Positions 1,693 to 60,151 of a stretch of DNA of 64,000 nt are shown here, piece by piece (positions within the stretch are counted from its first letter, which is position 1; every line of letters starts with the position of its first letter). Made by a program: the position numbers and the translations under genes. The DNA is taken from assembly GCA_964016885.1 (NCBI GenBank), contig OZ024745.1:83700001-83764000 (forward strand), written 5' to 3'. The notes under the pieces are model-generated. The model did not search any database. It was not told where the DNA came from and worked only from the letters and a program-made list of their open reading frames with translations. This DNA comes from Eledone cirrhosa (Eukaryota).

Positions 1693-3383
1693 TATATTAG
1701 AAAGTGAGGTTTTTTTTACAAATTGAAAAATAATCGAGGTGTGCTACACGAGTGAAAGTATAAAGAAAAAGAGATGAAATCGAAAATATAACTGGAGTCT
1801 TATTTTAAAAAAATATATATATATTTATTTGGTTCCTTTACCGGTTTCGCAGTTCTTCTGCTTTTCAAAAGTAGAGTTGAGATGGAGGGTCTGTGGTTTT
1901 TCTCACATCTGGTTGGTCTGTGAATGTTACTTGTTTTATATGGAAAAAGTGGATCGAAATGCCAGGTTTTTCGAGAAGTAATTTGATTGGTAGGTCAATA
2001 ATTATAATAAATTTCGCGCCAGTTCGCGTTACAATAGTTCTTCAAATAAGAGGGGGTGTTTGTCACAGGTTGTTTTTTTCATATATGAGTGTTTGAATTT
2101 ATTTTTACTTGAAAAAAGGGGCTCGTGCAGGCTTTTTTTTTTTGTTTTTTTTTTTGATTGGTTATAAATGAAATTATGGCTGTCACGTGAACAAGTTTTC
2201 ATTAAATATTCGCGCCCTTATTTGGAAATCCATTCTGTAGCCTTTTTAGAGAATTTTATGATAAGTAAAAGATAATGGTCAAGAGAAATGGGATGGGAGA
2301 ATTGTTCTGGTTCAGTGAATATGGTTAGTTCTCTGGGGTGTCAGAATTCAGATTTTCTATTGAATAAAGAAAGTAAAGATATGTATGTTTATTTCTGTGC
2401 TTGTGTGTGTGTGTGTGTGTGTGTGTGTGTGTGTGTGTGTGTGTGTGTGTGTGTGTGTGTGTGTGTGTGTGTGTGAATTTCTTTTTACTTAAAAAAAGGT
2501 GGCTCACGAAGGCTTTTTTTTAATAAACGTGATTTGATTGATTATAAATGAAATTTGGCTGTCACGTGAACAAGTTTTCGTAACATTTTTGCGCCCTTAT
2601 TTAGAAATCTATTCTGAAGCCTTTCTAGAGAATGTTATGACAAGGAAAAGATAGTGGTCAAGAGAAATGGGATGGGAGAATTGTTCTGGTTCAGTGAATA
2701 TGGGTAGTTCGCTGGGGTGTCAGAGTTCAGATTTTCTATTGAAGTAAAGATATGTATGTTTATGTGTGTGCTTGTGTGTGTGTGTGTGAGTGTGTGTTTG
2801 TATGTGTGTATTGGAAGATGATTCTAATAGTCGAAATGGGGGAGGGAGTTGTGGGTGTGGGGATTGTTATGTGTGTGTATCGGTGTTATGTGTGTAGGAG
2901 TACGGTTAGCATGTTAAGGTGAAGAGAATATATATATATATATTGTGTGTGTGTGTGTGTGTGTGTGTGTAGGAAAATGATTCCTTTAGTAGGAATATTT
3001 TTGAATGAACATATTTTCCTTACTTATTCGTATTTGTTCTGTTGTATTGTCAGTGCAAACGTATGTTATTTGAAGAACTATTGTAACGCGAACTGGCGCG
3101 AGATTTATTATAATTATTTCGAGCTACTTTTTCCATATAAAACAAGTAACATTCACAGACCAATCAGATGTGTGAAAAACCACAGACCCTCCATCTCAAC
3201 TCTACTTTTGAAAAGCAGAAGAACTGCGAAACCGGTAAAGAACCAAATAAATATATATATATTTTTTTTTAAATAAGACTCCAGTTGCATTTTCGATTTC
3301 ATCTCTTTTTCTTTATACTTTCACTCGTGTAGGACACCTCGGTTATTTATCAATTTGTAAAAAAAACCCTCACTTTCTAATAT
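1693..3383. repeat. Upstream pseudo-LTR of the PLE with an inverted partial pLTR (arms ~1693-2049 and ~3066-3383)
   Basis: The arms are reverse complements, e.g. ggtttcgcagttcttctgcttttcaaaagtagag vs ctctacttttgaaaagcagaagaactgcgaaacc. The spacer holds a ~380-bp tandem duplication (2091-2470, 2471-2815). Confidence 0.85.
3205..3240 (+). ncRNA. Minimal type-I hammerhead ribozyme, U3-A8 variant (mirror copy at 1836-1871, minus strand)
   Basis: CTT-TTGAAAA-GCAG aagaa CTGC-GAAA-CCGG-TA-AAG: stem I, core, stem II, GAAA, palindromic stem III, GUA triplet. Confidence 0.7.
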
Positions 3384-4437
3384 ATATATATATGTATATA
3401 TATATATATATGTGTGTGTGTGTGTATATGTGTATGTATATATGTATGTATGTATGTATATGTATGTATATGTATATATGTATGTATGTATGAGTGTGTG
3501 TGTATATATATATATATATATATATATATATATATATATATATATATATATATATATATATATATACACTCATATATATATATATACACACACATATATA
3601 TATATATATGCATATATATATATATACACACACATATAATTATATATGTGTGTGTGTGTATATATATATATGTGTGTATATGTGTATATATATATATGGG
3701 GGTATAGATGTGTATGTGTAGATATAGATATATATGGATATATATATATATATGATTACATGCATGCGTGTGGATGTGTATATAAGTTTGCATATATTTG
3801 TACGTATGTATATTTTGGTTAGATATCAATATAACTGTACCTCTCTATATATATAGTGTGGATATATGCACTTTGTATACTATGAAATTTATGTGTTTTA
3901 ACTATACCAACATGTACTTCTCTGAGTTTGATTGTTTATGCATAAACATACTAATAATATTTTAGAGCGTATAATATGTTATATTATACTAGGTGCAATT
4001 TACCACACCGTACTATATTGTATTGGTTAAGTTGTATATTATCGCATTACTATATCTCATTATCTTATTATAATTTTCATTTTTTAATATACTATCTTTC
4101 CTAGCCATAACATTAATTTATATTCACCTTAAAACTCAATACAACACTAATCAACATTTATTTTGACATTCCTTTTAAATTCACTATTCAAAATACATTC
4201 AACTATCAGTTTGACAATCCCCTTCCTTCCTAATAGATTTTTATGCCATTTCTACTAACACCCTACAACCATTCCTTTCAAATGGTCATGACCTCAACTA
4301 AAGTGTATTACTTTTCATCTTAACACCATATGAAAAAAACAATTTGATTCGTTAGTTCTTCAACTACCTCCAAATAAGGACATGATACTAACATGCTACT
4401 AATTCTGAGTAAAATTATTATTGAATAAAATTATTAT

Positions 4438-4569
4438 TGCTTTTGAAAACAGCTGGTGATATGCATGTAAGTAAATATTTTCTCTATCTGATAGTTTGTA
4501 AACTTACATAGATCAATAACTGAGTATAGATACAATGTATCATCACTATCTAGAAACGATCGTAAAGCA
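4438..4569 (+). ncRNA. Type-I hammerhead-like motif, U3-A8 variant, with a ~100-nt branched stem II
   Basis: TGCTT-TTGAAAA-[cagctggtgatatgcat...atgtatcatcactatcta]-GAAA-CGATCG-TA-AAGCA, followed by a short tail and (TA)n. Confidence 0.6.
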
Positions 4570-4789
4570 GTGAAGTATATCTATAATGACTTGATTTTTT
4601 ATTTTATTTCATTGTTTTAAATTATATATATATATATATATATATATATATATATATATATATATATAGATAGATAGATAGATATTTATATACACACACA
4701 TTAAAGGTCATAGCCATCCAATGGCTATCATCGATATATATATATCAGTAAATATAGGATTATGAGTTCATGCAATTAACTTATGCTTC

Positions 4790-5615
4790 GTCACTATATA
4801 TATATATATATATAAATTTCTATACCTTTCATTATATATATATATATATATATATATATATATATATATATATATATATATATATATATATATATATATA
4901 TATATATACATATACATATATATAAAAATACATATGTATATATATAAGAGATGGGTGTGTAAAGGGTAAGGTAGAAAGTAGGGGGGAATATAAATCAACA
5001 GAAATATAAATATCATAGGGGAAAAAATATAAATATAAGAGGAGATGAGGGAGAAAAAGAATATATCGGTAAAGAATGTGAGTTCAGAGAGTAATACAAA
5101 TCGTAGTGGATGTAAGGCGTAATGAGTAAAGAAGACGTTCAAGGTGGTTGAGTTATCATAGGAATGTCAATCCAGTTACAAAGTAGATGCGATTTCAGGT
5201 GAGGACAACATCTGAAGATCTCGGTCTTGGAGTTAAGGCAAGTGGAAGTGGCTTTCAAATTTTGGAGAATTCTAAATTTTTCCGTGGTGCACAAAGAACA
5301 ATTCTTTGTGCCCCTTTGGTATTCTCTTGAACGGTCTAAAATAGACCAATCGATAGTATACGGAATGTTTTTGTCTTTGAATTCCCACACTTTATTTGCG
5401 AGAGCTGTTGCTGTTCTTTTTTCAGGATGTTTAAAAGAAGCGACATGTGCGTAATACCGGGTTTTGAACCTGTCCTGAGTCATGCCAACATATCGTTCAC
5501 TCCTGGCTGGCTGGTTGTTAATCAACGGTGTCAATTTGGCCTCATACACAATGGATTTAATATTACATTTGCCCTGTAATGGGCATTCTTCCGACTTCCT
5601 ACAACTGCATCCTGG
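4790..5615 (-). mobile_element. 5'-truncated Naiad-like PLE: GIY-YIG endonuclease (5139-5615) plus 3' UTR
   Basis: Translates to GCSCRKSEECPLQGKCNIKSIVYEAK...RYVGMTQDRFKTRY...CSLCTTEK...LNSKTEIFRCCPH, i.e. CxCx5Cx5C linker, GIY-YIG and CxxC...CxH. Confidence 0.85.
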
Positions 5616-58631: not shown

Positions 58632-58639
58632 CTATATGT

Positions 58640-59160
58640 GTTATATATAATGATGTCGCCCGTGTAAAAAATGCGGAACAATACGTTATTGAATAGTAGT
58701 ACGAAATAGAAGTATCACTATATATAAATATAAGGTTTTGGGAGATTTGATACTTGAACATATATGGACTAAGGGATTTTATTGAAAAAGTATATGTTAT
58801 TATTATTTTGATACAAGAGATTTCTGGTACGAAGAGAAAGATCGTGTGGTATGTAACCAAGAGCAAGACCGCCTTGTGACTTGGAGGGAGCATTCTCACA
58901 AACTCCAATCAAGTAACAATCATTATGATCCAGATGTAGCGATTGAAGTCCATCAATGGATAAGTAGAGCAAAGCGCATGATGGGCCTGATCGCCTCACT
59001 GTAGACTTATGGAAACTACCCAAATCTCGCAAGTTTCTAAGACATTTCTGCTTCGAAATATTTAAATGTCACAAGCTTGATAAATGGGGAATTTCAGGAA
59101 TAGTGTCAATACCCAAGAAAGGCAACCTCAATATCTGCACCAATGATAGTGGTCTTCCTC
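58640..59160 (+). mobile_element. RTE-type LINE fragment, paralogous to 61555-61950
   Basis: Shared tttattgaaaaagtatatg...ggaatagtgtcaatacccaagaaaggcaacctc, encoding SGIVSIPKKGNL. Confidence 0.7.
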
Positions 59161-59691
59161 TGAGTAGATTACCCTAGATAGGCATCAAGAAAAATAAATA
59201 ATTGTGGTATATTCATAATATTATTGATAAAGGAGATTATTAATTTCAATAATTTTATATAGATTAAGCAATTAATCTATGGATATCGAATAGAAAACGA
59301 AATACTGCGATGACCTTTTTACACATTAATATTCATCACATAGGAATGGCGAATTTCAGACTCAAGGGAGTTTTGTATTGTTTCATCCGGGGTTTTATAT
59401 CTCAGAGTTCCATTAAATAAGGTAAGATATCACCTAGACCACTCTTGCATGTTATCTCTGTCTGTCCATATAAGTACTAGGGATTTTATTTAAATGTCTA
59501 TGGTACTTCCCTTCTCCAAAACCTCTAAACTTGTACTTATGTAAAAAAAAAAAACATCAAATCCTTTAAAATAGGTGATGGATGGGTAGAATCGATGGAG
59601 TTCCGGAGATAAAGCCTGTGGCATTTAGTTATGCATTTATTTAATATAATGTAAATTAGGATTGGTGCTCTGAAATAGCGATGTATACATG

Positions 59692-60151
59692 AATGTATGT
59701 ATAGTATATCTGGCGATATACTGTATGTTTAATTAAACACATCTTGAATACCTTGCGCTATTATTTTAAAGTAGTGTCTATGTCACTTACTTCTTTTTTC
59801 AACAAGGGAAGGGAGATAAGCTGACAGATCTGTTTCACACTGTTGGAGTTCATCAGAGCACCAATCCTAATTTTCAATGTTTGCTGGACCGGCAATCGCT
59901 CTGTATAATCAGTTCCTGATTATTACTGGAATTCTATAAGAATTTAGCCTCTATAATTTTCAACAAAGGTCGGCGAGTGCTAAGCTCTGATGAACACCAA
60001 CAGTGTGAAACAGATCTGTCAGCTTATCTCCCTTCCCTTGTTGAAAAAAGAAGTAAGTGACATAGTCACTACTTTAAAATAATAGCGCAAGGTCTTCAAA
60101 ATGTTTTTAATTAAACCTACAGTATATCGCCAGATATACTATACATACATT
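59692..60151. mobile_element. 460-bp fold-back (arms 59692-59859 / 59984-60151) with hammerheads at the inner arm ends
   Basis: The arms are reverse complements; see the HHR feature at 59981. Confidence 0.9.
59981..60026 (+). ncRNA. Canonical minimal type-I hammerhead ribozyme (mirror copy at 59817-59859, minus strand)
   Basis: TAAGCT-CTGATGA-ACAC caaca GTGT-GAAA-CAGATCTG-TC-AGCTTA, with a palindromic stem III and a GUC site at 60020. Confidence 0.9.

What the first reader, a model, noticed from the sequence alone, without database searches (positions are those of the whole stretch)
1693..60151. A series of polarity-locked hammerhead fold-back elements, mostly without any ORF
Seen in sequence: seven independent inverted-repeat inserts from different families (1693-3383, 7235-8510, 41889-42105, 42299-42435, 48021-49336, 55689-56279, 59692-60151). 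Each carries a type-I hammerhead motif in both arms. In 7 of 7 the left ribozyme is on the minus strand and the right one on the plus strand, with 3' ends pointing outward, mostly into (TA)n. Established: PLE pLTRs carry minimal HHRs with palindromic stem III, and PLEs often insert with an inverted 5' pLTR. Inference: this is a truncation series from ORF-bearing PLE down to a bare 137-bp ribozyme palindrome. The short members could be a distinct MITE-mimicking class of non-autonomous retro-elements, whose transcript from either strand is a rod-like hairpin carrying one sense and one antisense ribozyme. That differs from tandem-repeat retrozymes.
Basis: partly seen in the sequence, partly recalled or inferred. 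Interest (0 to 1): 0.75.

Follow-up and report, generated by a model that had tools for sequence, protein, structure and literature searches.

The report
Head-to-head Penelope retroelement insertion stubs
These seven mirror-image stretches are real but are the known back-to-back ends of Penelope-like jumping genes, and even the tiny ones whose joint recurs hundreds of times were likely rebuilt at each insertion by copying one RNA from both cut DNA ends, not spread as a separate class of ribozyme element.

Summary
All seven inverted repeats exist and point outward. The rest of the description needs correcting.

- The boundaries are wrong. Six elements carry an extra 37-160 nt 'tail' on one arm only, so the '137-bp palindrome' is about 223 bp and asymmetric. 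The first element is the inverted end of a full-length Penelope-like element (PLE).
- Only 4 of 14 arms pass a strict hammerhead descriptor.
- Outward polarity holds outside the window. It is the published PLE architecture (inverted 5'-truncated copy, one-sided tail, opposite-strand hammerhead pairs).
- Two junctions do recur (395 and 397 loci), but these copies do not look inherited. The central base sits with either arm, one source haplotype occurs with both forms, flanks differ, and joints pile up where copies begin with an extra G, a likely cap.
- Both arms of a locus share subfamily variants (12 of 12).

Best reading: both cut ends prime on one RNA and the two cDNAs are joined head to head. 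A MITE-like self-propagating class is not supported. The scan reported this same reading before on other DNA of this genome.

The parts
487..1566 (-). N-terminal part of a degenerate PLE ORF that follows the left arm of E1; RT and GIY-YIG lie beyond the window start (L096)
   Evidence: ORFs; L096 ORF with YIG motif and RT-like DNA; far short end
1691..2049 (-). E1 left arm: internal pLTR with U3-A8 hammerhead (core to cleavage site 1839-1868), continuing into the ORF
3066..3386 (+). E1 right arm: inverted 5'-truncated copy with tail, hammerhead 3208-3237, ends in (TA)n
7239..8547 (.). E2: short left arm 7239-7507, tailed right arm 8193-8547 (tail 8511-8547); CCGAAGA core, right copy interrupted
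7754..8230 (-). GIY-YIG endonuclease fragment (C-terminal end of the PLE ORF) inside E2
   Evidence: Pfam PF01541 E=1.7e-07, above cut-off
41889..42165 (.). E3: short left arm with complete long-stem-II hammerhead (41922-41967), tailed right arm (tail 42106-42165), roughly 33-nt duplication at the joint
42212..42435 (.). E4: about 223-bp asymmetric unit; tailed left arm, short right arm, joint at the 7-nt quasi-palindrome centred on 42367
42212..42298 (-).
   Evidence: same tail on one arm in 50 of 51 junction loci
48021..49424 (.). E5: short left arm 48021-48154, tailed right arm 49195-49424 (tail 49337-49424); no ORF of 120 aa or more between them
55528..56287 (.). E6: tailed left arm (tail about 55528-55688), short right arm; U3-A8 core; the family carries a GIY-YIG-like ORF elsewhere
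59653..60151 (.). E7: inverted insertion of a 317-319-nt tandem-monomer, ORF-less hammerhead repeat; tailed left arm (tail 59653-59691); complete canonical hammerhead 59987-60020 on +
59642..59651 (+). E7 target-site duplication, left copy (right copy 60151-60160)

Best explanation
These are head-to-head insertion units of endonuclease-bearing Penelope-like retroelements, each with one tailed and one short outer end, and they are likely made anew at every insertion when both cut ends of an AT-rich target prime reverse transcription on the same RNA and the two cDNAs are joined at their 3' ends. One end would start at the tail-distal site and the other at the tail-proximal site, both just downstream of the hammerhead. 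Each cDNA runs toward the RNA's 5' end. Long runs give ORF-bearing units (E1, E2). Runs that reach the inferred capped start a few bases upstream of the hammerhead give the 120-350-bp mini-palindromes. The two cDNA ends are inferred to join bluntly (keeping a cap-derived G) or through a short quasi-palindrome whose central mismatch is repaired either way, which makes some junctions recur hundreds of times. Shown: anatomy, polarity, one-sided tails, recurrence counts, two centre forms, shared source variants, G excess. Inferred: cap, two-ended priming, mismatch repair. Most units are likely inert by-products.
For: Polarity outside the window: in 630 kb of evenly spaced genome pieces, 162 inverted pairs were found and 35 had hammerhead-family arms; 29 pointed outward, 3 were centred in the motif, 3 pointed inward. 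Neighbouring arm matches within 5 kb were outward in 15 of 20 pairs for the E4 family and 16 of 19 for the E1 family. One tail plus one short end: 50 of 51 E4-junction loci (49 of 51 with a second classifier) and 14 of 15 E1-junction loci (the 15th looks like a false tail call by eye). Centre base: native on the short arm in 29 and on the tailed arm in 21; E1 family 6 versus 8. A two-variant tail haplotype occurs with both centre forms (2 and 2 loci), and both E1 subfamilies occur with both forms. Both arms share the subfamily type in 12 of 12 informative E1 loci; 12 shared variants against 4.3 expected, 6 of 5000 permutations. Start pile-up: 23 of 58 unselected E4-family copies begin within 12 nt of one base. 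2,734 of 20,692 copies have a non-native base just before it, G in 56 of the first 100 (expected about 26%, p=1.5e-10). 231 loci join two arms at that base, and 16 of the 50 listed have an extra G on both arms. Only 1 of 1,176 locus pairs shares both flanks. The E4 family has an RT + GIY-YIG ORF (motifs by eye; relatives of about 700 aa, one named GIY-YIG endonuclease). In vitro, a PLE protein cleaves and extends both strands and starts at two internal sites that bound the tail (PMC11167929).
Against: No transcript data, so the cap and RNA start are inferred from DNA only. Some single-sided G's could come from the partner arm through microhomology (several rows). In the E4 family the arms shared 0 variants against 166 private in 66 pairs, and a 4-5% variant was on both arms in only 1 of 12 pairs, so same-template copying is shown for the E1 family only. 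Two overlapping cDNAs on one RNA need strand displacement or two transcripts of one locus, which is untested. Three inward pairs exist in the sample; two inspected lie between separate insertions, and the third overlaps an outward unit but was not inspected. No ORF was linked to the E3 or E5 families. Pfam and PDB gave no hit for the E4-family ORF. Only 51 of 395 and 15 of 397 junction loci were read, all non-window ones from the first two contigs.
Confidence: 0.78

Rival explanations
1. Snap-back self-priming: one cDNA folds on a short quasi-palindrome and copies itself, making the second arm. Self-priming, there on an antisense template, is the published reading of PLE junction palindromes.
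For: Both arms share source variants in the E1 family. Recurrent joints sit on quasi-palindromes. PMC3846280 reads junction palindromes as self-priming (passage).
Against: A cDNA that starts at the short site cannot copy a tail it does not contain, yet the native centre is on the short arm in 29 of 50 loci and 6 of 14. Joints with an extra G on both arms and uneven 1-2-base spacers (16 of 50) have no pre-existing hairpin. Later flipping of the centre by recombination should also homogenise the arms, but E4 arms hold 166 private and 0 shared variants.
Confidence: 0.12
2. One reading: the short palindromes are a self-propagating, MITE-mimicking family copied as whole hairpin units.
For: Identical junctions recur at 395 and 397 loci with near-identical outer ends and dispersed flanks. 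Mean divergence is only about 2%.
Against: The ends are not terminal inverted repeats, because one arm is tens to 160 nt longer. Both ends fall on the family's two ordinary start sites. Centre form is unlinked to source haplotype. The recurrent junctions are a small share of their families (24,016 and 6,245 exact arm matches) among many other joints at the same spot. E6- and E7-family joints all differ; the E7 joint motif occurs at 2 places with different structure.
Confidence: 0.06
3. Assembly or amplification artefact (long-read fold-back chimeras).
For: Palindromes are a known artefact of such methods (recalled).
Against: The arms differ by 1-17%, carry family-specific one-sided tails, and E7 has a target-site duplication. 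Contigs of two public runs bridge the E4-type centre (same study, possibly the assembly's own source).
Confidence: 0.01

Closest known systems
Insertion units of endonuclease-bearing Penelope-like elements with inverted 5'-truncated copy, one-sided tail and junction palindrome (PMC3846280 passages; PMC8557442 passages; PMC8969392 passages)
   Same: Head-to-head inverted pLTR copies, a tail at one end only, microsatellite targets, a target-site duplication of about 10 bp, palindromes at the inverted junction, a C-terminal GIY-YIG domain.
   Different: Tails here are 37-160 nt against the 30-40 nt described. Many units have no ORF at all. The genomic pattern argues for two-ended priming rather than the self-priming proposed in PMC3846280.
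Minimal type-I hammerheads of PLE pLTRs (PMC4209133, first of four parts read)
   Same: That paper already reports dual minimal hammerheads 100-700 bp apart on opposite strands, linked to truncated PLEs, a palindromic loop or stem III, and the U3-A8 core seen in E1 and E6.
   Different: The E4 family has a family-wide U4A core (CAGAAGA) and a 5-bp stem III closing a 9-nt loop. I did not see this variant in the part read and did not read the rest.
Anolis Poseidon element PAc in vitro (PMC11167929, parts 1-2 of 4 read)
   Same: Both strands are cleaved and extended, and two internal start sites downstream of the hammerhead bound the tail. The target is AT-rich and hammerhead cleavage is not needed.
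   Different: In the parts read it does not describe joining of two cDNAs, cap-derived bases or recurrent junctions.
Animal non-LTR retrozymes (bioRxiv 10.64898/2026.07.22.740005, part 1 of 5 read; PMC7229834 search listing only)
   Same: The E7 family is an ORF-less 317-319-nt tandem monomer with a canonical type-I hammerhead in each unit.
   Different: E7 here is an inverted insertion with PLE-type tail and short ends. Circular RNA was not tested.
MITEs (non-autonomous DNA transposons; features recalled)
   Same: Short, high-copy, inverted repeats, TA-rich sites.
   Different: The termini are asymmetric because of the tail, the internal joints vary, and the parent families encode RT rather than transposase.

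Membership tests
EN+ Penelope-like element insertion unit | Single ORF with RT and C-terminal GIY-YIG in the family | tested here: met
   E2 GIY-YIG PF01541 above cut-off. E1 and E4 families show RT and YIG motifs by eye, and E4 ORF relatives include one named GIY-YIG endonuclease. The E6 family has a GIY-YIG-like ORF. Pfam itself missed the E1 and E4 ORFs.
EN+ Penelope-like element insertion unit | Same ORF link for the E3 and E5 families | not tested
   Only short family copies were seen; no ORF search was run on them.
EN+ Penelope-like element insertion unit | Hammerhead motif in the pLTR | tested here: met
   A motif or its degenerate copy in all 7; strict descriptor passes 4 of 14 arms, with controls.
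EN+ Penelope-like element insertion unit | Inverted 5'-truncated copy, head to head | tested here: met
   7 of 7 in the window; 29 outward, 3 centred and 3 inward of 35 in the 630-kb sample.
EN+ Penelope-like element insertion unit | Tail at one end of the unit only | tested here: met
   E2-E7 directly; E1 with its far short end in L096; 50 of 51 and 14 of 15 junction loci.
EN+ Penelope-like element insertion unit | RT phylogeny within a named PLE clade | not tested
   No labelled reference RTs were on hand; the clade is not assigned.
Non-LTR retrozyme (E7 family) | Tandem ORF-less monomers each with a type-I hammerhead | tested here: met
   Direct copies 316-319 nt apart at 5 listed places; unit junction seen.
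Non-LTR retrozyme (E7 family) | Self-cleavage and circular RNA | not testable with these tools
   Needs RNA experiments.
MITE | Terminal inverted repeats reaching both termini | tested here: not met
   One arm extends 37-160 nt beyond the repeat.
MITE | Copies inherited as one fixed unit | tested here: not met
   Centre form unlinked to source haplotype; E6 and E7 joints all differ.

The most novel reading that the evidence does not exclude
The mini-palindromes that keep the RNA start on one or both arms are themselves transcribed outward from their centre. Their 160-230-nt start-to-tail RNAs carry all signals for the PLE enzyme, so they form a minimal non-autonomous retroelement whose palindrome is not inherited but rebuilt at every round by two-ended priming.
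Probability: 0.15. Interest if true: 0.7.

Novelty: new member of a known kind. Interest (0 to 1): 0.4.

Why it matters
The architecture is known. How PLEs build inverted ends is described as unresolved (PMC8557442 passages), and the published reading is self-priming (PMC3846280). The thousands of mini-units here give a testable alternative: centre-base forms, G on both arms and same-source arms predict two-ended priming on one capped RNA, which the existing in vitro PLE system could test. I found no paper stating this in searches. The library lacks most subscription journals, and this scan's own notes already proposed it for this genome. In practice, such units (roughly 50 per Mb in the sample) could be mis-annotated as MITEs.

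Tried and rejected
A DNA search with the 137-bp stretch found nothing, not even itself, because common words are skipped; I used exact patterns instead. Rfam gave no hammerhead match. RNA runs: no RNA holder listed. The laid runs were contigs only. The protein atlas was unavailable, and PDB and Pfam gave no hit for the E4-family ORF. A variant that first looked confined to tailed arms (6 versus 0) was found on short arms too (15 short, 8 tailed, 7 unclear of 30), so I rejected the idea that the arms come from different pLTRs. An apparent recurring RTE fold-back (L001) is two RTE-like copies meeting tail to tail in a trinucleotide repeat. L187, a satellite array giving false descriptor hits, was dropped from the 64-piece sample before counting. 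Counts are alignment pairs, not de-duplicated elements, and its library included six window arms oriented by hand. The E3 anchor search returned no rows. Single-strand MFE folds did not recover monomeric hammerhead folds; this is expected for dimer-type motifs and was not used as evidence. No supplementary files were opened; those of PMC4209133 and PMC11167929 may bear on the core variants and start sites.
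Full report
Setting. The window lies on contig C5 of a 3.0-Gb eukaryotic assembly. It is 35% GC and rich in simple repeats and retroelement fragments.

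Observation. Hammerhead-like motifs read outward in all seven. A strict descriptor (core, stems I-III, cleavage dinucleotide) passes 4 of the 14 arms; it gives 47 hits in 640 kb of genome against 1 in the reversed control. The other arms are degenerate, as listed in the observation check. E1 and E6 use the U3-A8 core swap already reported for PLE hammerheads (PMC4209133). Rfam finds none of them.

True anatomy. Reading outward from each repeat shows that one arm continues into family sequence before the (TA)n. Other genomic copies share these tails. E4 is therefore about 223 bp and asymmetric. E1's left arm leads into a degenerate RT + GIY-YIG frame that continues into the neighbouring 10 kb and ends at the family's short site, so E1 is the inverted end of a full-length element. 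E2 holds the GIY-YIG end of an ORF. The E4 family has an RT + GIY-YIG ORF upstream of its hammerhead and the E6 family a GIY-YIG-like ORF. The E7 family is an ORF-less 317-319-nt tandem monomer, which makes it retrozyme-like; the window copy has a 10-bp target-site duplication.

Polarity. In 63 evenly spaced 10-kb pieces (one satellite piece dropped), 162 inverted pairs were found, 35 with hammerhead-family arms: 29 outward, 3 centred in the motif, 3 inward. Two inward cases inspected lie between separate insertions. Among the first 100 listed arm matches, neighbours within 5 kb were outward in 15 of 20 pairs for the E4 family and 16 of 19 for the E1 family. The rule holds, but it is the published head-to-head arrangement (PMC3846280; PMC8557442). 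Opposite-strand hammerhead pairs 100-700 bp apart were noted in 2014.

Do junctions recur? In the E6 family (20 matches), the 8 joints visible, window included, all differ. In the E7 family (112 matches, 30 read), 9 of 25 distinct loci are inverted, none with the window's joint; the joint motif occurs at 2 places, with different structure. In the E4 family there are 24,016 exact arm matches and the exact joint at 395 loci. In the E1 family there are 6,245 arm matches and one exact joint at 397 loci; this is not the window's own E1 joint.

Inherited or re-formed? I read 51 of the 395 E4 loci. Fifty have one tailed and one short arm. The single centre base is in native orientation on the short arm in 29 and on the tailed arm in 21 (a second classifier gave 28 and 21 of 49). 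A two-variant tail haplotype occurs with both forms, and only one of 1,176 locus pairs shares both flanks. I read 15 of the 397 E1-family loci: 14 have one tail (the 15th looks like a false call), the forms are 8 and 6, and both subfamilies show both forms. Both arms share the subfamily type in 12 of 12 informative loci (12 shared variants, 6 of 5000 permutations as high). A copied palindrome would carry its centre form with its haplotype. Re-formation at a 7- or 9-nt quasi-palindrome, with the central mismatch repaired either way, would not. Against this: E4 arms shared no variants in 66 pairs, so the same-source result rests on one family.

Why joints cluster at the hammerhead. Following a lead from earlier scan notes, I tested for an RNA start. 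In unselected E4-family copies, 23 of 58 begin within 12 nt of the first base of stem I. Of 20,692 copies matching from that base, 2,734 have a non-native base before it, and G in 56 of the first 100. Of 30 such loci read, 28 leave the family sequence there and 24 join an inverted family piece. At 231 loci two arms meet at that base; of the 50 listed, 16 have one extra G/C, 16 have an extra G on both arms, 2 on one arm, 5 none and 11 other. That reverse transcriptases add C opposite a cap is recalled knowledge. Contigs of public runs show many joints landing at the same place. Some one-sided G's may come from the partner arm.

Mechanism. In vitro, a PLE protein cuts and extends both strands and starts at two internal sites that bound the tail, without needing hammerhead cleavage (PMC11167929). 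With the patterns above, the simplest model is that both target ends prime on one RNA, one at each site, and the two cDNAs are joined head to head. Because the start sites lie only 70-230 nt from the inferred cap, complete runs give mini-palindromes that always contain the hammerhead region. Snap-back cannot give a tail on the arm with the non-native centre, nor G on both arms.

Verdict. The feature is real and belongs to a known kind. The proposed new class is not supported. The remaining interest is the mechanistic signal, which the scan has already noted on other pieces of this genome and which I could partly test independently here.

Noticed in passing
window 7095-7213: An eighth mini fold-back beside E2: a 43-bp palindrome plus a one-sided tail of about 76 nt, cut downstream of its hammerhead core. 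Six more short palindromes of this family were seen in the 630-kb sample, with different centres.
   Followed up: partly
window 32346-32821 and 49426-49713: A fold-back with a hammerhead (32559-32586, minus strand) on one arm only, and a second copy of the same family abutting the E5 tail.
   Followed up: partly
window 57085-57542: A nested fold-back whose arms resemble the E7 family by eye, pointing outward.
   Followed up: no
window 44786-45097; 6966-7092 with 8548-8677; 33049-33685; 50776-54363: Further inverted repeats with no hammerhead found. One is a pair of an abundant SINE-like repeat; one flanks E2 as an outer inverted pair.
   Followed up: no
window 42368-42410 and L001-L030: The 24,000-copy E4 family has a family-wide U4A hammerhead core and an unusually stable stem III; whether it cleaves is unknown. 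The fold-back joint creates a canonical core on the opposite strand by accident.
   Followed up: partly
window 41889-42435: E3 and E4, from unrelated families, sit tail to tail in one (TA)n tract. Many fetched loci show such stacking of different families in the same tract.
   Followed up: no
G000:C4:120138928-120139409 (listing): E7-family tandem pair followed by an inward-pointing copy 138 nt away, the only inward case among the 100 listed matches.
   Followed up: no
L001:1585-2649: Two RTE-like copies meet tail to tail in a trinucleotide repeat, the opposite polarity to the PLE units.
   Followed up: partly
window 16462-18456 and 29006-31042: A 2-kb direct repeat at 97% identity, not examined.
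   Followed up: no
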